NCBI GenBank assembly: GCA_964651585.1
Contig: CAZYWI010000001.1
Location: 1 to 34,097, forward strand
Source: an uncultured Candidatus Saccharibacteria bacterium
GTDB lineage: Bacteria > Patescibacteriota > Minisyncoccia > UBA6257 > JAKLIH01
Reading direction: 5' to 3'
Length of the DNA stretch: 34,097 nucleotides
The position numbers and the translations under genes were made by a program. The first letter of the stretch is position 1. Each line of letters opens with the position of its first letter. The notes under the pieces were generated by a model. It saw nothing but the letters and a program-made list of their open reading frames with translations. It had not been told where the DNA came from and searched no databases. Shown here one piece after another: positions 1 through 34,097 of this stretch.

Positions 1-832
1 ACACAAATGGTATTTTTTCACCTTGAACATTAAACTCATAAATTAAAAGCAAACATTCCCCAGCACCACTTGTATATCCGGTTTTACCTCCTCAAATCTC
101 ATCAATTTGCCCCAATAACTCATTCGTGGTGACAATAAGATGAGTTTCTCCAGTAAGCGATTTAAAACTGGCGGATTTTGTCCTAGTGATTTCTCCTATA
201 ATGGGATAGTTATAATAAATATAACGCGATAATTTAAATAAGTCAAGCGCGGTAGTAAAATTTCCTTTATCATCAAAGCAAAGAGGATCAAAAAAAACAG
301 TATCTTCCATTCCTATTTCTTTTATTTTTTCGTTCATTAAAGCAGCAAATTTTTCTCTGCCATAATAAGAGGCTAAAATCATAGAAGAATCGTTGGCTGA
401 CATAATAAGCGTCATATTTAATAAATCTCTTACTTTGACTTTTTCGCCTTTTTCAAAATGAATTGTACCTCAATTTTTATTCAACATACTTTCGTCTATA
501 GTAATAACGCCGTCTAAGTCCATTTTATCTAAAACAACTAAGGCGGCGATTAATTTACCAATAGAAGCTGGAAAAGTATGTAAAGTGGCATTTTTGCTAT
601 AAATAATTTGATTAGTTTTTAAATTACCTATTAAAACAATAGGGGCTTCTATTTTTTCCGAGAACGTATATTTATTAACATTTTGATAAGATAAATCGAA
701 AAGGCTATGATTATCTTTTAATAAAACACCACCCTGATAATGAAAAAAAGATAAAAACAAAACTATTAAAATAACAGTAAGAAAAAATAATATCCACAAG
801 AATTTCTTTTTTATATATCTAACCTTTTCCAT
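1..832 (-). CDS. D-alanyl-D-alanine carboxypeptidase (peptidase S11, low-MW PBP); 3' end runs off the window
   Basis: Joins ORFs 470..832 and 92..415 plus 2..91 through in-frame TGA at 470 and 92. Has an N-terminal TM/signal segment, then SxxK (ASIGK), SxN (SAND) and KTG (GGKTGYT) motifs in canonical order. Confidence 0.85.
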
Positions 833-844
833 ACTGGTTATAAT

Positions 845-1426
845 TTAATAAATTTCTTTGTCACCTTCTTGATCAATGTTTTGGGTATTTTCTGATGCTT
901 GAAGTTGTGAGTTCTTCAATTTTTCATATTCTGGTAATTCAGAAATTTTTGTTAGACCTAAGAATTTCAATAAATTAAATGAAATTTCATATAAATAGGT
1001 ATTTCTGCGTTGAGGATGTGGATAGCGATCAATTAAGCCACGAATAAGCAGAGTTTTCAAGGGGTAAGAAGAATTTGCCCCCCTAATTTCTTCTATACCG
1101 CGATGAGAAATCGGGCCTCGGTAAGCAACAATAGACAAAACTTCTAAAGCAGTAGGTGTTAAATCGCCTTCTAAAACTAACTTGTTTAGCTTTTTAACAA
1201 AGTTACTTGCTTTTTCGTTAGTAACAAGCTGTACCATTCTTTTGCCACTGCTTTCTTTTTCTAAAATTGTTAGACCTCTGTCTTCTTCCTGATATTCATG
1301 AATTAATTCAGTAATTGCCTCCTGAACTTCTTCGTTATTTATTTCGCAAATTTTTGATAAATCTTCAAGAGACAATGGCTCTCCAGATGCAAATAATACC
1401 GCTTCAATTTTATATTTATTTTTCAT
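845..1426 (-). CDS. scpB: segregation and condensation protein B
   Basis: 193 aa intact ORF with the ScpB-type N-terminus (EAVLFASGEPLSLEDL) and tandem winged-helix layout. scpA lies two genes upstream. TAA stop. Confidence 0.85.
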   Translation of the reverse strand: MKNKYKIEAVLFASGEPLSLEDLSKICEINNEEVQEAITELIHEYQEEDRGLTILEKESSGKRMVQLVTNEKASNFVKKLNKLVLEGDLTPTALEVLSIVAYRGPISHRGIEEIRGANSSYPLKTLLIRGLIDRYPHPQRRNTYLYEISFNLLKFLGLTKISELPEYEKLKNSQLQASENTQNIDQEGDKEIY

Positions 1427-1435
1427 AATTTAAAA

Positions 1436-1924
1436 TTATTTATGCCATTCGTTATAAATGCCACTTTTAAAATAAGAATCTAACATTTTTAATTCCTCAT
1501 AAATGCCTTCAATCAAATCATAATTTTTACTCTCTTCAAAGCTAACCCAAGCAAAATCAGACATAGAATTTTGAAGATTAATTTCGCCGCTATCATAGTC
1601 AGCATATAAACTAACTATTATAGAAGGAATGCCATCAGATCTCACAAAAGCCATGCTCGTTAGATATCTCACGTTTTTAATATTAATACCCACCTCTTCT
1701 TGAATTTCTCTTTTTGCAACTCTTTCAAAAATATTATATCAATGATCCTTAGTATCTTTGGGCGTATTAATATAATCGCTCATCTCTAATTTACCACCCG
1801 GCACAGTCCATTTTCCAGGAAAATTTTTTTCTCAATCGGCCCTTTTTGTAATCAAATATTTATCTTCTTTCTTAACAATCACCGTTACTGATATATAGTG
1901 GGCTTTGTTTAGATTATATTCCAT
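1436..1924 (-). CDS. NUDIX hydrolase
   Basis: 162 aa after reading TGA at 1832 and 1739 as Trp. Starts MEYNLNKAHY at 1924. Nudix box core REIQEEVGI follows GKWTVPGGKLE, with an insertion inside the box. Confidence 0.7.
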
Positions 1925-1954
1925 AAGTTTGTATAATACTTATTAAAATAATAT

Positions 1955-2682: not shown

Positions 2683-5286
2683 TTATAAATTTTTCCCACA
2701 ACAATGCTTGTATTTTTTGCCACTACCACAAGGACAAGGATCATTACGACCTACTTTTTTCTTTTCTCCAGAAATAATAATGCTTGGCTTAGCTTCTACT
2801 TTTACTTCTTTCTTTTCTACTTTCATTATAAAATCTAAAACATAATCATTAAATTTTGATAACAATTCTTCGTAAGATTCGTAAGAAAGCCGTTTATATT
2901 CTACTAAAGGATCTTTTTGAGCATAAGATTGCAAACTAGCTGAATCTCTAAGAGCTTCCATTTTCTCTAAATGAATCGTTCACAAAAAATCAATAGCTTG
3001 CAAAGAAATCTGTTTAATAATTTCCATAAATTGTATTTCACCAAATTTTACTTTCTTCTCGCGATAAACTGTTTCCATTTTTTGCTCTAAAATATTTTGT
3101 ATCCTCTCTTTTTTATTAAAATTTCTCTGAATTTCTGCTGTTTCATCTTCGGAAAAATGTAAAGTAAGATCAGCCAAATAAGTTTGGGCCTTTTCAAAAT
3201 CTAACCTATTAGTATAAACAAAATCGAGAAAGTTGTTAATTCTATCTTGATAAATTCCTCTCACATATTGATCTAAATCCCCCACTGAAGAAATTTTCAA
3301 AATATTATTTCTTTTACTATAAATTGCCCCGCGTTGCTTATTTAATACATCATCGTATTCTAAAATATGACGCCTTAAATCCAAATTAATACCTTCAATT
3401 TTTGTCTGGGCAGATTCAATGGCCCTCGTAATCATTGGATGCTCAATTGGCTCCTCTTCCGAAAATCCAAAACGTTTCATCAAAACACCAATAGTTTTTG
3501 GTGCAAAAATTTTAATTAATTCGTCTTCTAAAGAAACAAAAAATTGAGTTTCTCCTGGATCACCCTGTCTCCCCGCCCTTCCACGTAATTGATTATCAAT
3601 TCTTCTGGCTTCATGCCTTTCTGTACCTAAAACAAATAAGCCTCCTAGTTTTAATACCTCATCCCTTTCCTCAACATCTAAGGGATTACCACCTAAAATA
3701 ATATCAACGCCACGGCCAGCCATATTAGTGGCTACCGTGACAGCACCCTTTCTGCCGGCTTGAGCAATAATTTGACCTTCTTGCTCATGCTGTTTGGCAT
3801 TTAAAACATTGCAAGGAATGCCCTCGTGCTTTAACATTTGAGCAATTATTTCATTAATTTCTACTGAGCGAGTACCTAATAAAATTGGCTGACCTTTTTC
3901 GTGACGCTGTTTAATTTCTCGAACAATAGCCTTATATTTACCATTGAGAGTCTGATAAATTCTATCGGGTAAATCTTTTCTAATCATCGGTTTATTAGTA
4001 GGAATTACGACAGTCTCTAAACTATAAACCTTTAAAAATTCTTCTGCAGAAGTAGCGGCAGTTCCGGTCATTCCGGCCAAATATTTATACATACGAAAAT
4101 AATTTTGAATAGTAATAGTTGCTATAGTTCTACTTTCGGGATTCACATAAACTCCTTCTTTTGCTTCTAAAGCTTGATGAAGTCCACCAGAATAACGCCT
4201 ATCGGGTAAAACTCTGCCAGTAAATTCATCAACAATCAAAATTTTCCCATCTTTAACAATATAATCTTTATCTTTTTGAAAAAGTACATAAGCTTTCAAA
4301 GCTTCTTCTAAATGATGGACATAATTGATTCCTTCTAAATCAAAAATATTTTTTCCTAAAATTGCTTCTAATTTATTTAACCCAGGTTCAAGCAAAGAAA
4401 TAGTTTTGTTTTTGTAATCAACTAAAAAATCATCATTTTCTTTTAATTTCGGCACAATTAAAGCAAATTGCTTATATAAAACAGATGATTCTTCGTCAGG
4501 CTGTGAAATAATTAAAGGCGTACGAGCTTCATCAATTAAAATACTGTCAACCTCATCAATAATAGCGAAATAATGACCTCGCTGAACAACATCCTCGGCC
4601 CTCGTCACTAAATTATCACGTAAATAATCGAAACCGAATTCCGAACTCGTGCCGTAAGTAATATCAGCGTCGTAAGCTTCTTTTTTTGTACAAGGACGTA
4701 AATACTCTTCAAACACTTTAAAACTTGCTAAAAGATCTCTTTGCTCATCCAATTGTTGTTGATCAATGTTAACTTTTTCCTGGGTATAAGAGGGGTCATA
4801 AAGATAAGACGCGCTTTGAGTAATGCAGCCAACGCTTAATCCCAAACTATAATAAATCTGCCCCATCCAAACAGCATCACGGCGAGCCAAATAATCATTA
4901 ACCGTAATAATATGAACTCCTTTACCAACTAAAGCATTAAGATAAGCTGGCAAGGTGGCCGCCAAAGTTTTACCCTCGCCTGTTTTCATTTCGGTGATTT
5001 TATGTTGGTGAAGAGCTATTCCTCCTAAAAGCTGCACATCAAAATGACGCTGCCCTAAAGTACGCCTCGATGTCTCTCTCACTAATGCAAAAGCCTCGGG
5101 TAAAATATCATCCAATTTTGCTTGGTTTGCTCTAATAAGAGTTTTGAGATTCGTTGATCGAGCTAATAATTCTTCAGTTGATAAATCTAATAAAGTTGGC
5201 TCTAAATCATTAATGTTTTTTATTAAAGCTGTGTTTTTCTGAACAAATTTTTTATTGGTATCTAATAAATTACTAAAAATTGACAT
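2683..5286 (-). CDS. secA: preprotein translocase ATPase SecA
   Basis: 867 aa. ORFs 2980..5286 and 2683..2961 join through TGA at 2980, which aligns with the conserved D.LW.EHL Trp. DEAD-like motor motifs are present ([12 protein letters not shown]). The C-terminal Zn finger is [14 protein letters not shown]. Confidence 0.97.
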
Positions 5287-6028: not shown

Positions 6029-7009
6029 TTATTGTTTAAAACCCACTAATTCTATCTCTTCTTCAAGCTTCACGCCAAATCTTTTAAAGACAACTTGCTT
6101 AATATGCTGAATTAGCTTGTAAATATCGGCACTTTTGGCATTATTGCTATTGACAATAAAATTAGCATGAAGATTAGAAACCTGAGCGCCCCCTATTTGA
6201 TAACCCTTAAGACCACTCTGTTCGATTAAATATCCAGCGGGCACTTGATAAGTTTTCCCTTTTTTAATTACAACTAAAGATGTCTGATTTTGAAATTTTT
6301 TAGGAAATCGATTCAGGGGTATGTTTTTAAAAACACAACCTGCACTAGGTAATGAGTAGGGTTGAGATTTGTGACGCTTCATTAAAATTTCTTGTATTTT
6401 ATTTTTAATTTCTTGATTAGTAATTTTTGCTGGCTGATCAATAAGTTGAACTTCCCAAATAATATAAGGCTGATGTTTAAAAATGCTATCGCGATAGTGA
6501 AACGAACATTTATTTTTTGATAAAGTAACAGATTTCGTTTTACTATTAAACTTGCTAAGATGAGAATATTTAATTGCTGTAACTTTCAAAATGCCATTAC
6601 TAATTTCTTTATTACTCACACCCGCATTACCACGAACAGCTCCACCAATACTGCCGGGAATACCTACTAAATCTATAAGATTAACTAATTTATAATCAAA
6701 CATATAATTTAAGGCAGTCATTAAAGTTACACCCGCACCAAAAGTACTGATATATTTATTCTGCTTTTTAAGTATCTCCTGTTTATTATTTTGAATTTTT
6801 AGCACTAAACCATCAAAACCGTCATCACTTATTAAAAGATTACTACCTCCACCTAAAATAAAAACGTTGAGCTTGTTTTGATTGGCTCAAGCTAAAGATT
6901 TTATTAATTGGTCTTCATTTTCTATGGTGGCAAAATATTTCGCCTCTCCCCCAGTTCTATAAGTAGTATATTTAGCTAAAAGAACATGCTTTTGAATAAA
7001 AATATCCAT
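6029..7009 (-). CDS. murB: UDP-N-acetylenolpyruvoylglucosamine reductase
   Basis: 326 aa. ORF 6029..6805 extends upstream through TGA at 6887 to ATG at 7009. The N-terminus is MDIFIQKHVLLAKYTTYRTGGEAKYF..ILGGGSNLL (FAD-binding domain). The C-terminus carries MurB SAGCVFKN and GGAQVS motifs. Confidence 0.9.
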
Positions 7010-7013: not shown

Positions 7014-7415
7014 TTATTTTGACGAGTTTAATTTATCTAAAAAAGATTGAAGAATTAGAGAAGCAGCAACATCATCAACTCTTTTTGTTTTGTTATTTCA
7101 GTTATAAGCTTCTTTAGTTGATAAAATTTCATTCTCCTCATAAACATTAACTCCAGTTATTTTATTTTTAACAAAATTAAAAAAAGATTTGGTAATTTTT
7201 GTTTGGTCAGTATCAGTAAAATTAAAACTTAAAGGTATACCTATAACGATATCGGTGATGTTCTCACCTTTAATGATCTCAAGCAAAGATTTCAAAATAA
7301 AAGCTTTATTTTTATTATCAATAATTTTATAAGGAAATGCTACTTTTCTATCTTCGTCACTTATAGATAGGCCTATTCTTTTCTCGCCATAATCAATTCC
7401 TAACACTTTACCCAT
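7014..7415 (-). CDS. ruvX: YqgF/RuvX-family putative pre-16S rRNA nuclease (Holliday junction resolvase-like)
   Basis: 133 aa. ORF 7098..7415 continues through TGA at 7098 to TAA at 7014. The N-terminus is GIDYGEKRIGLSISD, and the C-terminal VDDVAASLILQSFL is typical of YqgF. Confidence 0.85.
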
Positions 7416-8270: not shown

Positions 8271-8924
8271 TTATTTGGAAAGAATATTGTCGATAATTTG
8301 AGTAATGTTTTGATGAATTTCCTCAATTGAACCAATGGCATTTACAGAATAGAGAATTTGTTTCTCCTTTAAAAAGTTGATAGCTGGAATAATGTCCCGA
8401 TAAAAAACTTCTAAGCGAGTTTTAATTACTTCCGGATTGTCGTCATTTCTTTGAATTAAATCACCGCCACAATTAGGACATTTTTCAAGACCCGGATTAA
8501 GAGCTAAAGAAAGGGATTCTCCACACTGATCGCAATAGCGTCTCGTTGTTGACCTCTTATAAACCTCTTCGTCGGGCATATCTAAATAAATCGCAATAAG
8601 AGGTTTCGCTTCTAATCAATTGAAAAATTCAACTAAAGACTCTGCCTCTATAAGATAGCGTGGGTTGCCTTCAAAAATCACACCCTGTCCTTCTGGCAAT
8701 TCTATAATTCTTTTAACCCAAACAAAAGTAGTAAGAGCCACTGGCACTAAATATCCTTTTTGAATGGTCTCATTAATTTTAGCCGCAATATCATTTTTGC
8801 CATTTTTAGCTCATTCACGTAAAAGATGACCTGTTTGTACTATCTCTAAATTATACTTTTGCGCCAATAACTTTGCCTGAGTATCTTTGCCACAATTTGG
8901 CTTTCCCGTTATAAAAATAATCAT
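8271..8924 (-). CDS. adk: adenylate kinase with Zn-binding lid
   Basis: 217 aa. ORF 8271..8579 extends upstream through TGA at 8616 and 8811 to ATG at 8924. The P-loop is MIIFITGKPNCGKDT, and the lid is CDQCG..CPNCGG. Confidence 0.9.
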
Positions 8925-9061: not shown

Positions 9062-10330
9062 TTAATAATCATACTTCCTCATTGTAATCTGGGCTTCGAT
9101 TTCTCTTTTAATTTCAATAGCCACGGCGACTAAAATGAGAATCGAAGTACCACCTAAATTAAAGGTATTTACTTTGGTCACCCCCTCTAAAATCATCGGT
9201 AAAATTGCTATCAAAGCAAGAAATAAAGCGCCAAACAAGGTGATCCGACTGGAAATTTGAGATAAATATTCCGCTGTTTTTTCTCCTGGTCTATATCCCG
9301 GAATAAAACCACCCATTTTCTGCAAATTTTCAGAAATTTCTTTCGGCTCAAAAGTAATACTGGTATAAAAGAAAGTGAAGAAAAATACCAATAAAAAGTA
9401 GACGGCAGAATAAACGATCTGGTTTTGAAATAGGTTAACAAGAAAAGTACCGATTTGAAGTGCGGCAGCATATTTGGTTGCAACTAAAAGCTGCCCAATA
9501 AAACTCGGGAGCATTAAAACAGAAATAGCAAAAATAATTGGAATAACACCTGCTTGGTTCACTTTTAAAGGTAATTGAGTGGTGACTCCTCCATACATTT
9601 TGTTACCCCTGACATGTTTTGCATAAGACACTGGGATTCTTCTTTCCCCTTCGGTCACAAAAACAACAGCTACAATCATAAGCAACGCTAATACCAAGAA
9701 AGAAATAATATTGAAAATTTGGTTAGATTTGTAAGTAAAAAAAGTTGTTACAAAACTTCTAGGTAAATCAGCAACAATACCTGCAAAAATTATTAAAGAA
9801 ATGCCATTGCCCATTTTTTGTTCTGTAATTAAATCACCTATTCAAACGAGAATCATAGAAACAGCTGTTAGTACAACTATATCTCGCAACAAAACAAAAT
9901 TAGAAGAAACTTGGATAATTTTTTGAAATTCAAACAAGCGAATCATAGCAAATCCCTGAAGTGCTGCCAAAGGTATTGTTAATCATCTTGAGTAATTTCC
10001 GAATTTTCTTCTTCCTTCAGCGCCTTCTTCGTGAAACATTTCTTTAAGGCTTGGAATCACCATTGCTAAAAGCTGAAGAATAATTGAGCTCGTGATATAT
10101 GGACCAATACCTAAAAGTGCTATAGATAAATTTTTAAAAGCACCGCCAGTAAAAATATTAAATAAACCAAGAATCTGATTAGCCTCTAAAAAACTTTTAA
10201 GTTTATCTGGGCTTACGTCGGATAAAGGAATTATAGTAAGTAAACGAAAAACTAAAAGTAATCCAAAAATATTAAGAATCTTTTTCCTTAAATCTTTTGT
10301 TTTAAAAATTGTAATAAGATTTTTAAACAT
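9062..10330 (-). CDS. secY: preprotein translocase subunit SecY
   Basis: 422 aa. ORFs 9983..10330 and 9062..9814 join through TGA at 9983 and 9842. The second aligns with the Trp of the conserved M.W.GE.ITE segment (MILV-W-IGDLITEQKMGNGISLIIFAGI). Confidence 0.95.
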
Positions 10331-10339: not shown

Positions 10340-10768
10340 TTATTCTATCTTTCCGCCAGCTTGCTCTATTTCGGAAGCTGCACCTTTAGAAACCTTGATA
10401 GCGGACGAAATGACATATTTTTTATTAATTGGCTTTTTAGAAGCAATAATTTTAAATTGCGTTTTTAATGAAGGGATAAAATGATACTGCTTTAAAATTT
10501 CTGGAGTAATTTTGGTACTCTCAGGAATAATTTTGCTTAGTTCATCTAAACGAATCTCGATCTTATGACGAGAAACAGAGGTATTTTTAGCACCTCGCCA
10601 TTTTGGTAGCCTTAAAAACGCCTCTTTTATTTGAGGCTTGATTTTTCTACCAGCCCGGGCCTTTTGACCTTTTTGGCCTTTTCCCGAATATGTTCCTTTT
10701 TTGCCTCCTCTACCTATATTTTTTGCCTTTTTATTTTTATGAAGAGGCTTCAGATTGTGTATTTGCAT
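10340..10768 (-). CDS. rplO: 50S ribosomal protein L15
   Basis: 142 aa, MQIHNLKP..GRGGKKGTYSGKGQKGQKARAG. Its start overlaps the rpsE 3' end by 32 nt. Confidence 0.93.
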   Translation of the reverse strand: MQIHNLKPLHKNKKAKNIGRGGKKGTYSGKGQKGQKARAGRKIKPQIKEAFLRLPKWRGAKNTSVSRHKIEIRLDELSKIIPESTKITPEILKQYHFIPSLKTQFKIIASKKPINKKYVISSAIKVSKGAASEIEQAGGKIE

Positions 10769-11354
10769 TTTCTATTTTTTGATTTATTTTATTAGAGTCT
10801 TTAAAATTTTTATATTTATTACTTAATAATATGAAAGCTTTATTTAAAGATTTCGCATTATTTATTACATTATGTGAGTTACCTAAAACCTTAGTAGTAA
10901 TATTTTTAATACCTGTTAAATTAAGAATTTCTCTAATAACACCGCCCGCGATAATGCCTTTGCCTTCTTTAGCTGGTTTCAAAATAATTTCGCTGGCCGA
11001 ATATTTAGCGGCTATTTCAAAGGGAATGGTGTCATTTTTAACAAGAGGAATGGTAATTAAATGCTTAAGAGCATCCTTTTTTGCCTTATCAATAGATTGC
11101 GATACATCTGCGCCTTTCGCCATACCTAATCCTATTTTATCGCGATGATTGCCAACTGCCATAGTGGTTCTGAACGATAATTTTTTACCACCGCCAGTAA
11201 CTCTTGCTACCCTTTTAATTTCTAAAATCACTTCGTCAAAGTCAGATTCAACAGAATGTTTTAGATCCCGACTTTTATCTAAACCTTTAGGTCTTTTAAA
11301 ATTTTTTTCCTCTTTATCATTAGAATGATTGTTTGTTGTATTTCTTGCTTTCAT
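10737..11354 (-). CDS. rpsE: 30S ribosomal protein S5 (N- and C-terminally extended)
   Basis: 205 aa with S5 core VARVTGGGKKLSFRTTMAVGN..GKGIIAGG. It is followed directly by rplO with no L30 gene between them. Confidence 0.93.
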   Translation of the reverse strand: MKARNTTNNHSNDKEEKNFKRPKGLDKSRDLKHSVESDFDEVILEIKRVARVTGGGKKLSFRTTMAVGNHRDKIGLGMAKGADVSQSIDKAKKDALKHLITIPLVKNDTIPFEIAAKYSASEIILKPAKEGKGIIAGGVIREILNLTGIKNITTKVLGNSHNVINNAKSLNKAFILLSNKYKNFKDSNKINQKIENANTQSEASS

Positions 11355-11356
11355 AT

Positions 11357-11716
11357 TTAAAATTTTATTCCTCCTTCTCTTAAACCCTCGGCTAATGCCT
11401 TTACTCGGCCTTGATATTTATAACCGCCCCTATCAAAAACAATAGTTGTAATATTGCTCTCTTTCATTCTTTGAGCCAATAGCTTTCCCAACTCTTTAGC
11501 TTTTTGTGTTTTTGTTTGCTTATTATTTTTTAATTCTTTTTCAAAAGCAGAGGCCAATGTCTGCTGACCGATATCATCAATTACTTGAGCATAAATATAT
11601 TTATTGGAACGAAATACAGAAAGTCGGGGTTTTTCTTTTGTCCCTTTAATTTTTGTTCTAATTTTTTTATGAATCCTTTCGCGTCGTTTTCGCTTAATTT
11701 GTTGAATATTAGTCAT
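11357..11716 (-). CDS. rplR: 50S ribosomal protein L18
   Basis: 119 aa, RLSVFRSNKYIYAQVIDD..FDRGGYKYQGRVKALAEGLREGG. Confidence 0.95.
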   Translation of the reverse strand: MTNIQQIKRKRRERIHKKIRTKIKGTKEKPRLSVFRSNKYIYAQVIDDIGQQTLASAFEKELKNNKQTKTQKAKELGKLLAQRMKESNITTIVFDRGGYKYQGRVKALAEGLREGGIKF

Positions 11717-11749
11717 ACAGTAAGCAGTTTAAATTATAAAATTTAAAAA

Positions 11750-12298: not shown

Positions 12299-12318
12299 AA
12301 ACGATTATTTAATAAATA

Positions 12319-12711: not shown

Positions 12712-12758
12712 AAAAATAATTTAAACAATTTATAATTATTTATGGGTACTTTAAAAAT

Positions 12759-12944: not shown

Positions 12945-12993
12945 AAAAATTAATCTTAATTTAAAGCTTTATCATAATTATGAGGGTTTTTAA

Positions 12994-13551: not shown

Positions 13552-13583
13552 AAAACTTATTTAAATAAAAGAGAATATTCTTG

Positions 13584-23782: not shown

Positions 23783-24253
23783 TTACTGTCGACGAGCAAA
23801 ATGGGCAAAAGCCTTATTGGCCTCAGCCATTCTTTGAACATCATTCTTTTTTTTCATAGCAGTACCTTCGCCTTTATAAGCGGAGATAATTTCTTCAGCA
23901 AGTTTCTCGCTAAATGACTTACCTTTCTTTTGATTAGCAACTTGAATAATTCAACGCATTGCTAAAGTTACTTTTCTTTCTCCAGATACAGGCGTAGGCA
24001 CCTGATAATTAGCTCCTCCAATACGCACACTTCTCACTTCTAAATTAGGAGCCACATTGGCAATCGCTGTTTCCAAGACATTTAACGGCTCTTGTTTCAT
24101 TTGCTTCTCAATGATATCTAAGGCTTTATAAATATTTTTTCTACTAATATTTTTCTTGCCTTTTCGATTTGACATATTTATTAATTTGGAAACAGTATAA
24201 CTTTGATATTTTAAATCCGGTTTATATTTTTTTTGATCAATTACTAAATCCAT
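23783..24253 (-). CDS. rpsG: 30S ribosomal protein S7
   Basis: 156 aa. ORF 23951..24253 continues through TGA at 23951 (LAMR-W-IIQVA, conserved R-W) to TAA at 23783 (..[15 protein letters not shown]). Confidence 0.95.
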
Positions 24254-25199: not shown

Positions 25200-27308
<2,109 letters not shown>

Positions 27309-27385: not shown

Positions 27386-29452
27386 TTATCTAATCTTTCA
27401 GCCTTGCTTTTTTAATTTTTCTATAATTTTATGGAGGTCCTGATTAATTTCATCATCGGTGAGAGTGTGAGTGTCGCTTCGGAAAACCAAATGAAAAGAG
27501 ACGCTCTTTCCCTCTTTTAAGCCTTCATAAATATCAAAAATATCTACATCAGCTAAATTACGACACTTAGCCGCTTTAATAGTTTGCTCAATATCTTGAA
27601 TAAAAGTATTTTCCGGCACCAAAATAGCGATATCCCTGATACTTGATGGATACTTTGGTAAGGGTTGGAATTCAAGCTCACGCTTTACTAATTGATATAG
27701 AGATTCTAAGTTAAATTCAGCTAAAACAACTGCTGGCTCTTGATGCTCTCTAATAAGACTATAAGCTTCTAAAATTTTGCTTTTAGGCACAAATAAAGCA
27801 CCGAGAAATTGATTTTTGCTATTGTAAAATACAATATTATGGCTTTCTAAAATAAATGGGGCATAGCGATTCAAAAAATTTGTTGGTAATTGATTGGAAA
27901 TGAAATAATCTTCGCTACCAATACCAAAAGATTCAAATAATCTCTCGATTATGCCTTTTGCTTCTAAAAGCAAAGTTGAGACCGCAGCCTTGGAATTGCA
28001 TAGACCAAAACTATAGGTATCGACCTCGTTTACTGCTTTACCAACAGCAAAAAAGTTTTTGGCAATTTCAAAAATTCTCGGTTCAAAAAAATATTTATTA
28101 TTAATACTTAGAGATCGTAAACTTGAAACTAAAGAAAAAGGACGAAGATATTTATAAGAAGAAGAAAGGGGGTTTTTAAGTTTAATTAATTGAGAAAGTG
28201 CTGATGGATCAAAAAATTTCTCTTCTTTAGCGCCTATAAAATGATAATCCATCACCTCTGATAACCCAAACCCTAAAGAATAATCTTTTAAAAGTTGCTT
28301 AAAATTATAAAAATCATTTTCTTGAGGGGGAATTAAATCAACTTGAGGCACTTGAGCTTTAATATTATTAAAACCATAAATGCGGCCGATTTCTCCAATT
28401 AAATCATTATCGTCAGAAAGATCTTGCCTTCAATAAGGAATGATTGCGAGATATAAATTCTTGTTTTTTCTTATAAAATTTATTTCTAATTTATGAAATA
28501 CTTGTTCTAAAAATTTTGGCTTGATATCAAATCCCAAAAACTCGCTAGTTTTTTCGATATTTAAAATAATAACCTTAGGCTTTGATTTCATTTTACTGGC
28601 TTCAATAGCTGGCCCACAAATTATGCCATAATGATATTTCTGAATTAACTGAGCAGCTCTTTGTAGGGCTTCTGCCGTTAATTCTTTTGGTAAATTATGA
28701 GAAAATCTTATCGAAGCATCGGTAATTAAATTAAGATTTTTTGAAGTTGTATAAATTAGCGAGGAATCAAAATTAGCGCTTTCTAAAACAATATTTTGAG
28801 TATACTTGGAAATTTCTGCCTCTTTACCTCCCTTAATTCCAGCAATGGCTAAAGGCTTCTCTGAATCGGCAATCACTAAAATATTTTGATTTAAACTTAT
28901 AGACCTGTTATCTAAAGTAGTGATTTTTTCGTCTTGTTGGGCGCGCCTGACAACAATTTTATGAGATGAAATTTTGTCATAGTCAAAAGCATGCATTGGT
29001 TGATTATATTCCAGCATTATAAAATTAGTAAGATCAACGATGTTGTTAATCGGACGCAGGCCACAAGAAATTAACTTTTCCCGAATTTCAAGAGGTGACT
29101 GGCAAATTTTCACATCACTTATGAGCAACCCGCAATACTGTAAACAATCGTTGGTATTTTGGATTTCGATGGCTAAATCATCTGATTGGTTTGTAGTAAT
29201 TTTAATTGGTTGCCTGATTACCGGAGATTTAAAATTCAAGTTTAAAAAAGCAGCAATATCTCTTGCTAAATGCAAGTGGCCACCTAAATCAGCAAAGCGA
29301 TTCACGGCTATATCAATTTCTAAGATAAAGTCTTTGCCTTGTTTGCGTAGCGTTGTTTCCCCAATATAATAATTTAAAATGTCAGCTAGTTCTTTAGCTT
29401 CTGGCAAATTATGAGGAATAAATTCTTTTAACCAATTATATGAATATTTCAT
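27386..29452 (-). CDS. pheT: phenylalanine--tRNA ligase beta subunit (lacks the N-terminal OB/tRNA-binding B2 domain)
   Basis: 688 aa from ATG at 29452 (MKYSYNWLKEF). TGA at 28430 gives IIPY-W-RQDL (E. coli PS-W-RFD). TGA at 27398 is read through to TAA at 27386 (..KKQG-W-KIR). Confidence 0.93.
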
Positions 29453-29610: not shown

Positions 29611-30687
29611 TTATTTTATATCCACTGCCTTTCGAACGGGCTTCGTAATTATTCCTGAATTAAAAACCCTGATATCATCAATACCATATTTTATCATGGT
29701 AAATCTTTCGAGCCCTAAGCCAAAAGCAAACCCTTCGTAATTATAATCGGCTCAATTCGCATAACGATAAAGATTTTTGTGCACCATACCAGCACCTAAT
29801 ACTTCCATTCAGCCGCTACCCCCACAAAGACGACAATTTTTATTTCTGCCTTGACATTTAAAACAAGAAATATCCATCTGCAAACCGGGACTTACAAAAG
29901 GAAAATAACTTGGCAAGAATCTAATTTTAATCTCTTTGCCAAAAATAGTTTTTGCTAATGCTTCCATAATATATTTAAAATTTGCCAAGCTAATTTTTTT
30001 ATCTACCATTAAACCTTCTATTTGCCGAAACTGAAAATCATGACGCGCGTCAGTAGCTTCGTAACGATAACAAACACCGGGCACAATAATTTTGATGGGC
30101 GGATTATTTTTTTCCATATATCTCATTTGCACTGGACTAGTATGAGTACGCAACAATAAATTCGTGGCCTTATATGGATAATCAGCTGAATAATTATTTA
30201 ATTTAAGCCCGTCTTCTAATCAAAAAGTGTCTCACATATCCCTCGCTGGATGATTTTTGGGTATGTTTAAGGCATCAAAATTATAATATTCACTTTCCAC
30301 TTCAGGTCCTTCAATAACCTCAAATCCTAATTTAGAAAAAAATTTTAATATTTCTCTCTCCATTAAGGTCTCAAGATTAAGAGAGCCTAGGTTTTGCTTT
30401 TTACCCGGTTGGGTATAATCAAACAATAAATTAGATTTTTCTTCTGTGTAATTGGCGCGCAATTCTTGATAAGTAGCCTGTAATTTTTGTTTCAGCTGAT
30501 TCAGGGCTGGACCCAACTTTTTTTTCTCCTCAGTGGCTAAATCTTTAAGCTCTTCAAAAAAAGAGACCAATTTTCCTCTCCTTCCTAAATATTTGATGCG
30601 CCACTCTTCTAGAGTGTTGCTATCTTTAATATTTTTGGCTTCTTCAAGAATTTTCGCTTCTCAATTTTTAATATCATCTAAATTCAT
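29611..30687 (-). CDS. pheS: phenylalanine--tRNA ligase alpha subunit
   Basis: 358 aa. In-frame TGA at 30661, 30232 (HPARDM-W-DTF), 30220, 29809 ([15 protein letters not shown], conserved G-W) and 29752. Class II motifs are present. Confidence 0.95.
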
Positions 30688-30945: not shown

Positions 30946-30972
30946 AGTATAGCATATTTTTCAAAAAATCAA
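30946..30972 (-). promoter_or_regulatory. candidate orphan promoter in the radical-SAM/pheS spacer
   Basis: Minus strand reads TTGATT, 15 nt, TGcTATACT. The extended -10 has the same TGcTAtACT form as the secA promoter, but the -35 spacing is sub-optimal. Confidence 0.35.
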
Positions 30973-30987
30973 GGGGTATATCATCCC

Positions 30988-31031
30988 TTACAGATATTTA
31001 CATATTCTTGGGGATATGTAAATATCTGTAA
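30988..31031. repeat. perfect 18-bp inverted repeat abutting the radical-SAM stop codon
   Basis: TTACAGATATTTACATAT, loop tcttgggg, ATATGTAAATATCTGTAA. The arm begins 1 nt after the TAG stop (31032..31034). Confidence 0.6.
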
Positions 31032-31808
31032 CTATGTTCTATTATGAATAACCAAATCCTCATATTTTATCCCCGATTTTTTAATAATCTCTTGACATTC
31101 TTGAATATATTTAGCCATCAATTTTTTATCCTGCAAAATCTTCAAACTGTCTGGATATTCTTTTTTCATCATAGTCACAAATTCTGAACCAGCGCCCCTC
31201 AAATTCATAAATTCAAATCAGTAATAATAAGTATAATTTTTGGTGATATTAATAACTTTTTCTAAGTTAATTAATTTTGGGATAATGGGACTAATAAAAG
31301 CATAAGTCTTAATCCCACTTTGATATAATATTTTTAAGGCTTCAATTCGTAATTTATTCGGGGGAGTAAATGGCTCCATTAAATTTTTTGTTTTTCCGTC
31401 AAAATTATTAATTGTTAATCCAACTTCGATATTGGGAAACTGTTTAAACAAATCTATGTCTCGTAAAACTAAATTTGATTTAGTTAAAATAGACAATCGA
31501 ATATTTCTATCTAAATTTTCTAATATCTTTCTTGTTAATTTTAACTTTTGTTCTATGGGCTGATAGGGATCAGACATAGAGCTCATAAAAACCTCGCCTT
31601 TTACTTTTTTATGTTTTGCTAACTCCGGAGCATTCATTTTGGCTTCAACCCACATTCCCCATTTTCCGTATTGTTTTCAACGACAAATAAATTTAGCATA
31701 ACAATAAGTACAGGCATGTTGACAACCAACATACTGATTTAAAGTATAATCACAACCTAATTTTGTTTTTGTATATATTTCTTTGGCTTGAGTTTTAACA
31801 AGCTCCAT
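31032..31808 (-). CDS. radical SAM protein, SplB/DNA-photolyase-like (COG1533-type)
   Basis: 258 aa from ATG at 31808. The CxxxCxxC cluster sits in the family-typical context YVGCQHACTYCYA. In-frame TGA at 31677 and 31218. TAG stop at 31032. Confidence 0.7.
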
Positions 31809-31850
31809 ATAGTTTTTTCATTTCCGTAATTGCTTTATTTTAACTCTGCT

Positions 31851-34097
31851 TTATTCTAGCTCTTTAATGGTTTTTAAAATAGAATCAGGATTTAAAGAGA
31901 TACTTTCTATACCTTCATCAATTAAAAATTTAGCAAACTCGGGATAATCGCTTGGCGCTTGGCCGCAAATACCAATATATTTGTTTTTAGCTTTGCATTT
32001 TTGAATGATTTCTTTAATAAGTCTTTTCACTGCTTCATTTCTTTCATCAGCAATTGAATGCAATTCGGGACTGTCACGATCAATACCTAAAACTAATTGA
32101 GTTAGGTCGTTGGAACCGATTGACATTCCGTCAAAAATATCCAAAAATTCATCTGCTAAAATAATATTAGAAGGAATTTCACACATTACATACACCTTTA
32201 AAGACGCGGATAAACGCGGATCAAAATACTGATTGACACTGATTCTGGGCGCAGCTTGATGTTTTAGGCCACAAACCTCCATAACGCGAATCACTTTTTT
32301 TCCTTCTTCTGGGGTGCGGCAAAAAGGTATCATGGGAACAACATTAAATAACCCAAATTCATCTCTAACTTTTTTCAGAGCGGCACATTCTAATTTAAAA
32401 GCTGTAATAAATTTCTGATCATAATAACGAGAAGCGCCACGTCAGCCTAACATAGGGTTTTCCTCTTGGGGCTCATAAAGATCACCACCAACTAAGTTAC
32501 GATATTCGTTGGTTTTAAAATCTGAGAAACGAACTATGACTTCTTTTGGATAAAAAGCGGCTCCAATTTTAGCAATGCCCCGGGCTAAATTATCAACAAA
32601 ATATTGCTTTTTATCTCGATAGCCGCTAGTTCACTGATCGATTTGTTTCTTAATTCCTGGAGGTAAATTCCTATAATGAATAAGTGCTAAAGGATGAATT
32701 TTAATATCGTTAGCAATAATAAATTCTTCTCGAGCTAAACCCACGCCATCATTAGGTAGCAGTCGTAAATTAAATGCCTGGTTTGGTTCCCCTAAATTCA
32801 TCATAATTTTCACTTTAGGTTTGGGTAATTTAGAAACATCGGTTTTTTTAATGCTAAAAGGAATGAATCCTCTATAAATTTTTCCTTCTTCTCCTTCAGC
32901 GCAAGAGACTGTAATTTTATCACCCATCTTGAGAATTTTAGTAGCGTCTTTAACTCCGACAATTGTCGGCACTCCCAGTTCTCTACCTACAATAGCTGCA
33001 TGGCAAGTTCGGCTACCACTTTCAGTAATAATAGCATTAGCTAATTTCATTGCCGGTACTCAATTAGGATCAGTTGCATAAGTTACTAAAATTTCTCCCT
33101 TTTGAAAATCTGATAAATGTTTAGCATCTTTGATAATTTTGACTTTCCCAGTAGCAATTTTATTACCAACACTTAGACCTGTCAAAACTGGCTTTTGCTT
33201 CTTTTTATTGTGCAGCTCATAACTTTCTAAAATATCGTATTGTTTAAGACTTTGTACTGTCTCGGGCCGAGCTTGCACAATATAAATTTGTTTATCTAGC
33301 CCATCTTTAGCAAACTCAATATCCATTTCTTTTTGATAGTGAGATTCTACTATCATAGAATAATGCCCCAAAGTCAAGATTTCTTCATCGGTGAGGGCAA
33401 ATTTATCTCTGAGATTTTTCGGAACTTTCACATATTGGGTACTCTTGCTTCCTTTACTATAAATTAACTTAATATCTTTTGTACCCAATCTTTTTTCTAA
33501 TATTGGTTTATATCCTTGAGCTAAAGTTTTTTCATAAACATAATACTGGTCAGCATTAACTCTACCCTTCACAATAGTTTCACCCAAACCATAACTAGCA
33601 TTAATCAGGATAACATCACCAAAATTAGTTTCGGTATCGCAAGAAAAAATGACTCCCGAAACCCCCTTATCACTTCGAATCATTTTTTGCACTCCAACTG
33701 ATAAACCAACTTTAAAATGATCAAAATTTTTTTCTACTCTATAGACTATGGCTCGATCATTAAAAAGCGATATGAAGCATTGCTTAACAGCTCTTAATAA
33801 ATTGTTCTTTCCTCTAATATTTAAGAAAGATTCATGAATGCCAGCAAAAGAAGCTTCGGGTAAATCTTCGGCTGTAGCTGAAGAACGTACTGCTACTGAT
33901 AAATTTTTAGTTTTATACTCCTCGCATAAACTTTCATAATACGCAACAATTTCTTTTTCTAAAAATTTAGGTAAAGGAGTCTTTCAAATGAGGCTTCTAA
34001 CTTGTTTACCTCGCTCTTGTAATTCTTTAAGATTTTTAATATCCAGACCCTCGAGAATGTTTTTGATTTTTTCTTTCAATCCCGTACTCTCTAAATA
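31851..34097 (-). CDS. ppsA: phosphoenolpyruvate synthase (pyruvate, water dikinase); 5' end off-window
   Basis: At least 748 aa. The ATP-grasp region is [30 protein letters not shown]. The phospho-His swivel domain is [17 protein letters not shown]. The PEP-utilizer TIM barrel is [18 protein letters not shown]. In-frame TGA at 33984, 33060 (DPN-W, conserved), 32631 and 32442 (MLG-W-RGASRY). Confidence 0.9.

What the first reader, a model, noticed from the sequence alone, without database searches (positions are those of the whole stretch)
1..34097. UGA is a sense codon read as Trp (translation table 4), not Gly (table 25)
Under the standard code, 22 essential genes look fragmented or truncated, including fusA, gyrB, secA, secY, pheS, pheT, rpsC, rplD, rplB and ppsA. 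Every interruption is an in-frame TGA, with no frameshifts and no internal TAA or TAG. I placed 43 such codons. Many fall on positions that are Trp in essentially all bacteria. In EF-G these are MD-W-M (23563), F-W (23503) and ETV-W (23329). In L4 they are RKP-W-.QKGTGRAR (18675) and SP.-W-R (18621). In S3 they are T-W-SSR-W (15974, 15962) and KV-W-IY (15392). Others are S19 T-W-NR (16823), S7 R-W (23951), the S14 C-terminal W (12762) and S17 KR-W (14378). The rest are SecA L-W-..HL (2980), SecY (9842), GyrB LI-W-EIVDN (27138) and EQL-W-ETT (25362), PheT Y-W-R.D (28430), PheS G-W-.E.LG (29809) and PpsA DPN-W (33060). None falls on a conserved Gly. TGG is also used for Trp, for example in pheT YNWLKE. 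All 40 real stops are TAA or TAG. Any standard-code annotation of this contig will mis-call these genes as pseudogenes.
Basis: partly seen in the sequence, partly recalled or inferred. Interest (0 to 1): 0.85.

Follow-up and report, generated by a model that had tools for sequence, protein, structure and literature searches.

The report
UGA-as-tryptophan code in a Patescibacterium

Summary
All 39 genes lie on the minus strand. They contain 43 in-frame TGA codons in 21 genes, plus 15 TGG. All 38 complete genes stop at TAA or TAG. The TGA codons are unchanged in 2-6 independent metagenome assemblies, so they are not sequencing errors.

At the 15 TGA columns with at least 38 standard-code relatives, 84% of aligned residues are Trp. 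The log-likelihood is -8.9 for Trp, -65.2 for the next best (Tyr) and -68.9 for Gly. Table 4 is supported and table 25 is rejected.

The organism is not a mycoplasma. It is a Patescibacterium (class Minisyncoccia/Paceibacteria) that groups 100/100 with two other TGA-using genomes, one of which names GTDB family JAKLIH01. Sister lineages of similar G+C use only TGG.

UGA-to-Trp in JAKLIH01 was reported in NAR (April 2026) and in the gTranslate preprint (May 2026), with tRNA-Trp(UCA) and no RF2. I could not test the tRNA or RF2 for this genome.

In passing, the 'ppsA' at the window edge is the tail of a conserved 1,754-aa nested fusion, PpsA[permuted enolase[iPGM]]. I found no paper on it, and table-11 gene calling fragments it.

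The parts
31851..34097 (-). C-terminal 748 codons of the 'ppsA' ORF, cut by the contig end. In-frame TGA at 33984, 33060, 32631 and 32442. It is the tail of a 1,754-aa PpsA[Eno[iPGM]] fusion ORF.
   Evidence: Neisseria PpsA and others: W/M, R, W/F
31032..31808 (-). Radical-SAM protein. TGA at 31677 and 31218; TGG at 31659 and 31650.
29611..30687 (-). pheS. TGA at 30661, 30232, 30220, 29809 and 29752; TGG at 30601.
   Evidence: 29809 = W in three solved PheS; 30232 and 30220 = W,W in T. thermophilus
27386..29452 (-). pheT. TGA at 28430 and 27398; TGG at 29432.
   Evidence: 28430 = W in E. coli, R/H in others
25200..27299 (-). gyrB. TGA at 27138, 26709, 25362 and 25326.
   Evidence: E. coli: F, Y, W, L
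23783..24253 (-). rpsG (S7). TGA at 23951.
   Evidence: 65 of 66 relatives have W
21613..23712 (-). fusA (EF-G). TGA at 23563, 23503, 23329 and 23065; TGG at 22162.
   Evidence: W in 77/77, 77/77 and 76/77; 23065 is a variable K/E/Q column. At the TGG column (22162), L007-L009 have TGA.
18207..18866 (-). rplD (L4). TGA at 18675 and 18621.
   Evidence: W in 48/56 and 51/56; L007 has TGG at 18675
16948..17781 (-). rplB (L2). TGA at 17041.
   Evidence: W in 45/53
16616..16921 (-). rpsS (S19). TGA at 16823.
   Evidence: W in 52/53
15350..16027 (-). rpsC (S3). TGA at 15974, 15962 and 15392.
   Evidence: W in 45/51, 37/51 (G in 14) and 50/50
14357..14608 (-). rpsQ (S17). TGA at 14378.
   Evidence: W in 42/44
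12759..12944 (-). rpsN (S14, short zinc type). TGA at 12762 is the last sense codon, directly before TAA.
   Evidence: W in 37/38
11750..12298 (-). rplF (L6). TGA at 12104.
   Evidence: W in 23/39
9062..10330 (-). secY. TGA at 9983 and 9842.
   Evidence: 9842 = W in Thermotoga, Aquifex and E. coli; 9983 = R/Y
8271..8924 (-). adk. TGA at 8811 and 8616; TGG at 8718.
   Evidence: I or L in 4 relatives; variable hydrophobic columns
7014..7415 (-). ruvX/yqgF-like. TGA at 7098.
6029..7009 (-). murB. TGA at 6887; TGG at 6455.
2683..5286 (-). secA. TGA at 2980; TGG at 4867.
   Evidence: W in Thermotoga and Bacillus SecA
1436..1924 (-). Nudix hydrolase. TGA at 1832 and 1739; TGG at 1808, 1547 and 1445.
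2..832 (-). D-Ala-D-Ala carboxypeptidase (Peptidase_S11), cut by the contig end. TGA at 470 and 92; TGG at 794.
10340..21199 (-). tuf plus the S10-spc ribosomal protein operon. Its TGA-free genes (tuf, rpsJ, rplC, rplW, rplV, rplP, rpmC, rplN, rplX, rplE, rpsH, rplR, rpsE, rplO) all stop at TAA or TAG. There is no rpmD (L30) between rpsE and rplO.

Best explanation
The contig belongs to an uncultured Patescibacterium (class Minisyncoccia/Paceibacteria, order UBA6257, in or next to GTDB family JAKLIH01) whose genetic code has UGA reassigned from stop to tryptophan (translation table 4).

Shown here: UGA is translated, it stands where relatives have Trp, it is interchangeable with UGG, and it is now the preferred Trp codon (43 against 15). 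Termination in this window uses only UAA and UAG. The trait is shared by a small clade and absent from its nearest sampled relatives.

Inferred from what is published for the family and from how table 4 works elsewhere: UGA is read by a dedicated tRNA-Trp with anticodon UCA, alongside a normal tRNA-Trp(CCA). Release factor 2 has been lost. RF1 terminates at UAA and UAG. AT mutational pressure (32% G+C) drove UGG to UGA once UGA was free.
For: - Codon inventory and stop usage.
- Independent assemblies carry identical codons.
- Trp at the aligned columns in 38-77 standard-code genomes, with log-likelihood Trp -8.9 against Gly -68.9.
- Alignments to solved structures with masked X at each TGA.
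TGA+TGG here is 0.54% of aligned codons; TGG alone in relatives is 0.56-0.63%.
- Only L007, L008 and L009 (70-74% aa identity over the aligned genes) share in-frame TGA (20, 9 and 7 TGA against 3, 0 and 0 TGG). The next relatives (about 60% identity, G+C 32-34%) have 0 TGA and 23-27 TGG.
- TGA and TGG swap within the clade.
- In a neighbour-joining (NJ) tree with all Trp columns masked, window + L007 + L008 (JAKLIH010000004.1, the genome that names the family) are monophyletic in 100 of 100 bootstraps.
- Literature. UGA-to-Trp in JAKLIH01, with Codetta support of 150-303 Pfam columns, 0% UGA stops, 82-88% UAA, tRNA(UCA) in 2 of 4 genomes and no RF2: PMC13092985. 12 further JAKLIH01 genomes, mostly with tRNA-Trp(UCA) and all lacking prfB: gTranslate preprint 10.64898/2026.05.24.727570. 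The window's stop usage (84% TAA, 16% TAG, 0% TGA) matches those figures.
- A recoded Paceibacterota contig (L180) carries a canonical tRNA-Trp with anticodon UCA, and an RF1 gene with the PVT motif.
Against: - No tRNA-Trp gene and no release-factor gene lies in the roughly 59 kb of this organism that I could read. Only tRNA-Asp, -Met, -Gly and -Thr were found. The decoding mechanism is therefore inferred for this genome.
- L180 belongs to a different lineage. Its group's TyrRS is only about 50% identical to this organism's.
- A few TGA columns are not Trp in relatives: fusA 23065 K/E/Q, adk I/L, ppsA 32631 R, and S3 15962 W with G in 14 of 51. That is expected for variable positions but gives no support on its own.
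- Family membership rests on 19 linked genes and an NJ tree, not on the GTDB 120-marker placement.
Confidence: 0.93

Rival explanations
1. UGA encodes glycine (table 25), as in the other recoded Patescibacteria (Gracilibacteria, Absconditabacteria, class JAEDAM01).
For: The organism is a Patescibacterium, the only bacterial phylum known for table 25. One S3 column (15962) has Gly in 14 of 51 relatives.
Against: Gly is 1.7% of residues at TGA columns, against 84% for Trp. The log-likelihood is -68.9 for Gly and -8.9 for Trp. No PDB-aligned TGA site is Gly. TGA alternates with TGG, not with GGN, within the clade. The clade lies inside Minisyncoccia/Paceibacteria, not in the table-25 classes.
Confidence: 0.01
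2. The genes are pseudogenes, or the TGAs are sequencing or assembly errors in a standard-code genome.
For: NCBI and JGI gene calls made with table 11 show the genes in fragments.
Against: - All 43 interruptions are TGA. There are none by TAA or TAG and no frameshifts across 10,208 codons.
- The codons are identical in 2-6 independent assemblies.
- The positions coincide with conserved Trp.
- The same sites are TGA in species only 70-74% identical.
- The affected genes are essential: EF-G, SecA, SecY, PheST, GyrB and ribosomal proteins.
Confidence: 0.005
3. The contig is from a Mollicute or an insect endosymbiont, the classical table-4 users.
For: Low G+C (32%) and table-4 behaviour.
Against: - The closest genomes are all Patescibacteria (79-60% EF-G identity), and the tree places the window there.
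- Peptidoglycan genes are present in the window or on the same contig: murB, a D-Ala-D-Ala carboxypeptidase, mraY and murJ.
- L30 is absent from the spc operon, which from my own knowledge is a CPR hallmark.
Confidence: 0.005
4. Mechanistic rival. UGA is read as Trp without a dedicated tRNA(UCA), by near-cognate decoding through a tRNA-Trp(CCA) (for example a 4-bp anticodon-stem variant, as proposed for Zinderia), or UGA keeps a dual sense/stop meaning.
For: tRNA(UCA) was found in only 2 of 4 JAKLIH01 genomes in PMC13092985 and in 'most' of those in the preprint. None lies in the roughly 59 kb read here.
Against: - The MAGs are incomplete, which explains the missing tRNAs.
- JAKLIH01 has a normal 5-bp-stem tRNA-Trp(CCA).
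- At 74% of Trp codons, UGA usage is too heavy for leaky decoding.
Confidence: 0.06

Closest known systems
UGA-to-Trp reassignment in Patescibacteriota family JAKLIH01 (order UBA6257, class Minisyncoccia): NAR 2026, PMC13092985; gTranslate preprint 10.64898/2026.05.24.727570
   Same: Same phylum and order-level neighbourhood. The window clusters 100/100 with the genome that names the family (L008). Same codon meaning, same absence of UGA stops, a similar UAA/UAG ratio, and the same low G+C.
   Different: This species is not one of the GTDB representatives I could reach; the best EF-G identity is 79%. Its proteins carry no NCBI protein accession and sit in clusters of 1-5 sequences. It is therefore probably a further, unbinned or undeposited species or genus. 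Its tRNA and RF2 status are unknown.
Second recoded Minisyncoccia lineage, genus GCA-2747955 (gTranslate preprint)
   Same: UGA-to-Trp in Patescibacteria, described with the same kinds of evidence.
   Different: The preprint treats it separately from JAKLIH01 (its own panel and tree in Figure 5), and three of its members still use table 11. I could not place it relative to the window. The L180 group may belong to it or to a distant JAKLIH01 genus.
Translation table 4 in Mycoplasmatales and in reduced endosymbionts (Hodgkinia, Zinderia, Nasuia, Stammera, Pinguicoccus, Fastidiosibacteraceae XS4) and in Eggerthellaceae (PMC13462651)
   Same: Same reassignment. Same expected machinery (tRNA-Trp UCA, loss of RF2). 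Low G+C (32%) as in some of them, and a probably small genome, which I infer from the phylum rather than measured.
   Different: An independent origin in a different phylum. This organism keeps peptidoglycan synthesis genes and is found in many environmental and engineered-system metagenomes rather than in an animal host cell.
Translation table 25 (UGA-to-Gly) in Gracilibacteria, Absconditabacteria and JAEDAM01
   Same: Same phylum and same codon captured.
   Different: A different amino acid (Trp, not Gly), a different class, and an independent event.

Membership tests
Translation table 4 (UGA = Trp) | In-frame UGA inside conserved genes, at columns where homologues have Trp | tested here: met
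   43 TGA in 21 genes. 14 of 15 well-sampled columns have a Trp majority. Log-likelihood Trp -8.9 against at most -65 for every other residue. PDB alignments.
Translation table 4 (UGA = Trp) | UGA synonymous with UGG (interchange between close relatives) | tested here: met
   6 TGA/TGG swaps at aligned Trp sites between the window and L007-L009. The combined Trp codon frequency equals that of relatives.
Translation table 4 (UGA = Trp) | UGA not used as a terminator | tested here: met
   38 of 38 complete genes end in TAA or TAG. Homology continues after the last TGA (S14, S17, S3, L2, GyrB). This covers the window only. PMC13092985 reports 0% UGA stops for the family.
Translation table 4 (UGA = Trp) | tRNA-Trp with anticodon UCA in the genome | not testable with these tools
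   None in the window or in about 25 kb of flanking contig sequence. One was found in a recoded Paceibacterota contig of another lineage (L180 8642-8716). The literature reports it for most JAKLIH01 genomes.
Translation table 4 (UGA = Trp) | Loss of release factor 2 (prfB), with RF1 retained | not testable with these tools
   There is no release-factor gene in the sequence read for this organism. RF1 with a PVT motif is present in L180 and its relatives. Absence of prfB is reported for the family.
Translation table 25 (UGA = Gly) | In-frame UGA at conserved Gly columns | tested here: not met
   Gly is 1.7% of residues at TGA columns, with log-likelihood -68.9.
GTDB family JAKLIH01 (Patescibacteriota; Minisyncoccia; UBA6257) | Phylogenetic placement with the family's reference genome, to the exclusion of other UBA6257/Paceibacteria genomes | tested here: met
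   An NJ tree of 19 concatenated proteins (3,104 columns, Trp columns masked) gives window + L007 + L008 (JAKLIH010000004.1) in 100 of 100 bootstraps. The sister group (L010, L013, L014, L047) uses the standard code.
GTDB family JAKLIH01 (Patescibacteriota; Minisyncoccia; UBA6257) | Formal GTDB-Tk placement (120 markers, relative evolutionary divergence within family range) | not testable with these tools
   Only one contig region is available. Identity to L008 is 72% over 7 genes and to L007 70% over 23 genes, so it could be the same family or a sister family.
Candidate Phyla Radiation / Patescibacteria | Closest relatives are CPR genomes; ribosomal protein L30 is missing from the spc operon | tested here: met
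   The top 60 or so GTDB hits are nearly all labelled Patescibacteria, Parcubacteria or Paceibacterota. rpsE is followed directly by rplO (overlap -32 nt). That L30 absence marks CPR is from my own knowledge.
Mycoplasmatales | Placement in Bacillota/Mollicutes; no cell-wall synthesis genes | tested here: not met
   No Mollicute is among the 80 best EF-G loci. murB and a D-Ala-D-Ala carboxypeptidase are in the window; mraY and murJ are on the same contig.

The most novel reading that the evidence does not exclude
The contig represents an undescribed species or genus of the UGA-to-Trp Patescibacteria, with no deposited annotated genome and at most 79% EF-G identity to any GTDB representative.

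In this clade the recoding has hidden unusual genes from table-11 annotation. The clearest example starts inside the window (31851-34097). It is a conserved single ORF of about 1,720-1,750 aa in which three consecutive lower-glycolysis enzymes are nested like Russian dolls: PEP synthase residues 1-34, then enolase ~216-430, then a complete iPGM, then enolase 1-~215, then PEP synthase 35 to the end.

The enolase is circularly permuted around the iPGM, and the pair is inserted into a loop of PpsA. I found no description of such an architecture.
Probability: 0.6. Interest if true: 0.75.

Novelty: new member of a known kind. Interest (0 to 1): 0.4.

Why it matters
There are practical and evolutionary reasons.

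**Annotation.** Any table-11 annotation of this organism breaks more than half of its genes. NCBI and JGI calls for the same contig show EF-G, GyrB, SecA, SecY, PheST, L4, L2, S3 and PGK in 2-4 pieces. Completeness estimates, metabolic reconstructions and protein databases are corrupted as a result. Only callers that allow table 4 recovered full-length proteins.

**Evolution.** The contig adds an independent, widely distributed member to the recently recognised UGA-to-Trp clade in Patescibacteria. [quoted passage not shown] The contrast with sister lineages of equal G+C that keep UGG only makes the clade a good system for studying how a stop codon is captured.

**Side observation.** If the nested PpsA-enolase-iPGM fusion is confirmed, it would be a rare natural case of double domain insertion with circular permutation joining three consecutive enzymes.

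Tried and rejected
**1. Looking for the tRNA-Trp(UCA) of this genome.**
- ARAGORN on the window and on every contig of the same organism that I could fetch (about 59 kb) found only tRNA-Asp, -Met, -Gly and -Thr, plus RNase P RNA.
- One metagenome-wide pattern scan for a Trp-type tRNA with a CTTCAAA anticodon loop gave 120 loci. The nine other candidates I translated were mitochondrial genomes, and several of the remaining tRNAs look mitochondrial or Mollicute-like by sequence. Only L180 was a recoded Paceibacterota contig.
- I tried to link L180 to the window's genome through shared samples, L31 cluster members and protein accessions. The comparison of TyrRS showed it is a different lineage, at about 50% aa identity.

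**2. Walking along the 57.6-kb JGI contig.** This reached 18.6 kb beyond the window. The last 11 kb were not fetched because each step costs a whole-database search and the chance of hitting the tRNA was small.

**3. RF2 absence.** It cannot be addressed without the whole genome.

**4. Rfam scans of the window.** Both the gathering and E-value thresholds found nothing in the long spacers.

**5. Supplements of the two papers.** They do not list tRNA(UCA) sequences or the accessions of my loci, so I could not check whether this species is among their genomes.

**7. Structure prediction of the fusion.** It was not possible. All full-length members exceed 1,200 aa and sub-sequences are not accepted.

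**8. First attempt at the tree.** It timed out and was redone with faster distances.

Full report
**1. What is in the window**

The window is 34,097 bp with 32% G+C and a uniformly negative GC skew. A protein look-up shows that a contig of exactly this length exists in NCBI, Logan and ENA records, so the window is a whole contig.

All real genes are on the minus strand. With TAA and TAG as the only stops, the strand reads as 39 tightly packed genes:
- a long 'ppsA' ORF cut by the contig end, a radical-SAM gene, pheS, pheT and gyrB;
- rpsL-rpsG-fusA-tuf and the S10-spc ribosomal operon (rpsJ to rplO, without rpmD/L30);
- secY, adk, map, a ruvX-like gene, murB, secA, scpA, a Nudix gene, scpB and a D-Ala-D-Ala carboxypeptidase cut by the other end.

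The window contains no tRNA and no Rfam family.

**2. The observation**

Counting from the start codons gives 43 in-frame TGA codons in 21 genes, 15 TGG codons, and 38 complete genes ending in TAA (32) or TAG (6). Its '22 genes' and '40 stops' are slightly off. Every coordinate it quoted is a TGA in my table, given as the low coordinate of a minus-strand codon.

The same population was assembled independently in many samples at 99.69-99.96% nucleotide identity:
- JGI 3300010338, 3300009658, 3300009714, 3300025613 and 3300025629;
- ENA ERZ772709, ERZ764753, ERZ795047, ERZ795051 and ERZ27257399;
- several Logan runs, and NCBI GCA_020049655.1.

In 183 codon-by-codon comparisons covering 37 of the 43 TGA sites and 13 of the 15 TGG sites, no codon differs. 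Sequencing error and decay into pseudogenes are therefore excluded.

Gene callers that used table 11 (NCBI, JGI and some ENA runs) split EF-G, GyrB, SecA, SecY, PheS, PheT, L4, L2, L6, S3, S7 and S19 into fragments. Callers that allow table 4 gave full-length proteins on identical DNA.

**3. Which amino acid**

I fetched 80 GTDB genomes around their EF-G gene. I aligned all window proteins to them with tblastn, letting the alignment run through TGA, and read the subject codon at every window Trp position.

At the 15 TGA columns with at least 38 standard-code relatives, the residues are as follows.

| Gene | Window coordinate | Relatives at that column |
|---|---|---|
| S7 | 23951 | W 65/66 |
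| EF-G | 23563 | W 77/77 |
| EF-G | 23503 | W 77/77 |
| EF-G | 23329 | W 76/77 |
| EF-G | 23065 | variable K/E/Q |
| L4 | 18675 | W 48/56 |
| L4 | 18621 | W 51/56 |
| L2 | 17041 | W 45/53 |
| S19 | 16823 | W 52/53 |
| S3 | 15974 | W 45/51 |
| S3 | 15962 | W 37/51, G 14/51 |
| S3 | 15392 | W 50/50 |
| S17 | 14378 | W 42/44 |
| S14 | 12762 | W 37/38 |
| L6 | 12104 | W 23/39 |

Pooled, 84% of residues are Trp and 1.7% Gly. A Codetta-style log-likelihood gives Trp -8.9, Tyr -65.2, Ser -66.4 and Gly -68.9.

For genes not covered by those loci, I aligned sequences with X at each TGA to solved structures.

| Gene | Residues aligned to the TGA sites |
|---|---|
| GyrB | F, Y, W, L in E. coli |
| SecA | W in Thermotoga and Bacillus |
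| SecY | W at 9842 in three species; R/Y at 9983 |
| PheS | W at 29809 in three species; W,W at 30232 and 30220 in T. thermophilus, Q/H and Y elsewhere; F/I at 29752 |
| PheT | W in E. coli, R/H elsewhere |
| PpsA | W/M at 33060; W/F at 32442; R at 32631 |

So the claim holds.

Two further quantitative points support it. TGA+TGG is 0.54% of aligned codons, the same as TGG alone in relatives (0.56-0.63%). TGA and TGG also replace each other at aligned Trp sites between the window and its closest relatives, in 6 comparisons.

**4. Who it is**

The best EF-G matches are all Patescibacteria:
- L007, CAYOES01, 79%;
- L008, JAKLIH010000004.1 'RA.bin82', 74%;
- L009, CAZCTX01, 73%;
- then Parcubacteria, Paceibacterota and Minisyncoccia genomes at 72% and below.

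Only L007-L009 also carry in-frame TGA: 20, 9 and 7 TGA against 3, 0 and 0 TGG. The next relatives (L010-L014 and L047; about 60% identity, G+C 32-34%) have 0 TGA and 23-27 TGG.

I built an NJ tree of 19 concatenated proteins, with every Trp column removed to avoid circularity. It places the window with L007 and L008 in 100 of 100 bootstraps, sister to standard-code genomes.

Three features exclude a Mollicute: L30 is missing from the spc operon, the window holds murB and a D-Ala-D-Ala carboxypeptidase, and the same contig holds mraY and murJ.

The window's own proteins have no NCBI protein accession and sit in 90%-identity clusters of 1-5 sequences. The species appears to lack a deposited annotated genome.

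**5. What is known**

Two 2026 papers describe this case.
[quoted passage not shown] Four genomes form a clade, with 150-303 supporting Pfam columns, 0% UGA stops, 82-88% UAA, tRNA(UCA) in two of the four, and no RF2. Sister families keep RF2, and some have only 4-5% UGA stops.
- The gTranslate preprint (10.64898/2026.05.24.727570, 28 May 2026) adds 12 JAKLIH01 genomes and 10 of genus GCA-2747955, mostly with tRNA-Trp(UCA) and all without prfB. [quoted passage not shown]

L008 is the genome that gives JAKLIH01 its name. A third paper, from August 2026, still lists only three earlier phyla for this reassignment (PMC13462651), which shows how recent the knowledge is.

The window's stop usage (84% TAA, 16% TAG, 0% TGA) matches the published family values.

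**6. Mechanism**

Shown here: UGA is a sense codon, it means Trp, it is the majority Trp codon (74%), it does not terminate any gene in the window, and the trait defines a small clade.

Inferred: decoding by a tRNA-Trp(UCA) derived from tRNA-Trp(CCA); loss of RF2, with RF1 reading UAA and UAG; and AT pressure converting UGG to UGA.

I could not test the inferred steps for this genome. In the roughly 59 kb available (the window, 6.5 kb beyond ppsA in L237, and 18.6 kb beyond the other end in L234) there are only tRNA-Asp, -Met, -Gly and -Thr and an RNase P RNA.

A collection-wide pattern scan found one recoded Paceibacterota contig, L180 (ENA ERZ795054 NODE_363). It carries a canonical tRNA-Trp body with anticodon UCA. 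Its acceptor and D arms match typical bacterial tRNA-Trp, and it has a G27-A43 mismatch at the top of the anticodon stem. It sits a few kb from an RF1 gene with the PVT motif. Its L31 is annotated in NCBI as Candidatus Paceibacterota. The TyrRS of that group is only about 50% identical to this organism's, so this is family- or order-level support and not evidence for this genome.

**7. Rivals**

- Table 25 is rejected by the column statistics.
- Pseudogenes and sequencing errors are rejected by the independent assemblies and by conservation across species.
- A Mollicute origin is rejected by phylogeny and gene content.
- Selenocysteine is implausible for 43 sites in housekeeping proteins at Trp columns.
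- Near-cognate decoding without a UCA tRNA, or a dual meaning for UGA, cannot be formally excluded. It is unlikely given the codon's heavy use and the absence of UGA stops.

**8. Noticed in passing: a nested three-enzyme ORF**

The 'ppsA' ORF that runs off the window at 34097 is the last 748 codons of a much longer ORF. It is intact in L238 (JGI 3300010338, 1,757 codons between stops and 1,754 aa from the first ATG) and partly present in L239. L237 has a 1-nt indel in it.

Pfam matches and alignments to solved structures give this order.

| Fusion residues | Corresponds to | Evidence |
|---|---|---|
| 1-35 | PpsA N-terminus (WF..G..D...VGGKNASLGEM) |; read by eye against the canonical PpsA N-terminus (my own knowledge) |
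| ~39-231 aligned, segment to ~250 | Enolase residues ~212-404 of about 430 | E. coli 1e9i: fusion 42-228 = enolase 218-403 |
| ~251-771 | Complete iPGM | Metalloenzyme profile 2-251 of 252, with iPGM_N |
| ~776-986 | Enolase residues ~4-215 | E. coli 1e9i: enolase 6-215 |
| ~987 to end | PpsA from residue 35 of the Neisseria enzyme (2ols) onward | through PEP-utilizers and PEP-utilizers_C |

Nothing is missing from any of the three enzymes. The enolase is cut in the loop after GDEGG(F/Y)AP. Its native C- and N-termini are bridged by the whole iPGM. The package sits in the PpsA loop between '...GEMIxxLS' and 'G(V/L)xxPxGF'.

The architecture is conserved end to end in five protein clusters of 1,719-1,726 aa, at 99, 64, 64, 56 and 56% identity (P0163-P0167). 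All five carry the same set of Pfam families, and the permuted order was confirmed for the two looked up (P0164 and P0166).

The catalytic motifs of all three enzymes are invariant:
- enolase: LD.AAS, IED, GDD, IKPNQIGT, SHRSGET, QEFMI, GDEGG;
- iPGM: ILDGWG, GNSEVGH, ADHGN;
- PpsA: TCHAAI, GICGQ.

The two other members whose DNA I fetched (L240 from MAG CAZFNU01, and L241) also use in-frame TGA. The next-best hits are ordinary or intein-containing PpsA proteins.

Three literature searches found no description. Conservation at 56-64% identity argues for a functional product. Whether it is one polypeptide of about 195 kDa is untested. This lead seems more novel than the codon finding.

**9. Verdict**

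The phenomenon is real, but it was already published for this lineage in 2026. The contig is a new, apparently undeposited member of it.

Noticed in passing
window 31851-34097 (minus strand) and L238 184-5448; also L237, L239, L240 6001-11169, L241 199-5358: The 'ppsA' at the window edge is the tail of a 1,754-aa ORF: PpsA(1-34) :: enolase(~216-430) :: complete iPGM :: enolase(1-~215) :: PpsA(35-end). It is a circularly permuted enolase wrapped around iPGM and inserted into a PpsA loop. It is conserved full-length in 5 clusters at 56-99% identity with invariant catalytic motifs. Every member whose DNA I fetched lies on a contig with in-frame TGA. I found no paper on it.
   Followed up: partly
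L180 8642-8716 (ENA ERZ795054 NODE_363, 62 kb): A recoded Paceibacterota contig carries a canonical tRNA-Trp body with anticodon UCA, which ARAGORN labels 'SeC'. Positions 27-43 form a G-A mismatch, leaving a 4-bp anticodon stem. RF1 (PVT motif), L31, S2 and EF-Ts lie nearby. The TyrRS of its group is about 50% identical to the window organism's, so it is a different lineage.
   Followed up: partly
L180 9909-10970 and 7023-7829: Two oddities in a TGA-recoded contig. One 353-aa ORF has 7 TGG and 0 TGA, a codon-usage outlier that may be recently acquired. A LAGLIDADG-type homing-endonuclease-like ORF sits between tRNA genes.
   Followed up: no
window 10737-11354 / 10340-10768: There is no rpmD (L30) between rpsE and rplO; the two genes overlap by 32 nt. 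After secY-adk-map come ruvX and murB, not infA-rpmJ-rpsM-rpsK-rpsD-rpoA-rplQ. Upstream of rpsL are gyrB and pheST, not rpoBC.
   Followed up: partly
window 5287-6028, 21200-21612, 24749-25199, 30688-31031: These spacers are unusually long for a compact genome (742, 413, 451 and 344 bp), including 413 bp between fusA and tuf. No tRNA and no credible Rfam match was found in them: none at the gathering threshold, and one sub-threshold microRNA-family hit (E = 0.08) at 30988-31031.
   Followed up: partly
L011, L015, L017-L021, L024, L028 and others, about 2 kb upstream of EF-G: Most standard-code Paceibacteria relatives have a tRNA-Pro(GGG) on the opposite strand upstream of rpsL. It is absent at that place in the window and in L007-L009.
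   Followed up: no
one search hit list (e.g. P0168-P0171, P0176, P0192, P0200): Many PpsA homologues, some annotated as Woesearchaeota, Nanoarchaeota, Diapherotrites, Wolfebacteria or Nostocales, are about 1,200-1,340 aa long and carry intein and LAGLIDADG Pfam domains (PF14890, PF14528). Magasanikbacteria PpsA proteins are about 1,000-1,050 aa, with some 250 extra residues and no Pfam hit there.
   Followed up: no
L237 ~7690 compared with L238 and the window (~32960): L237 has a one-base deletion (GAAGAAGG to GAAGAGG) that frameshifts the fusion ORF. It is either an assembly error or a strain variant. P0163 (JGI) has a different N-terminus from L238.
   Followed up: no
L234 13754-14179, 20256-20424; L237 2946-3167: The same organism's contigs hold RNase P RNA (class A, 101 bits, just above the threshold), tRNA-Gly(CCC), tRNA-Thr(CGT), tRNA-Asp(GTC) and tRNA-Met(CAT). 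Further genes there are also fragmented by table 11: PGK, MraY, LepA, MurJ and TyrRS.
   Followed up: partly
window 25450-25620 (gyrB): GyrB carries a low-complexity insertion of about 55 aa, rich in K, N, E and D ([14 protein letters not shown]...[13 protein letters not shown]), before the C-terminal conserved block. E. coli has its own large insertion at that place.
   Followed up: no
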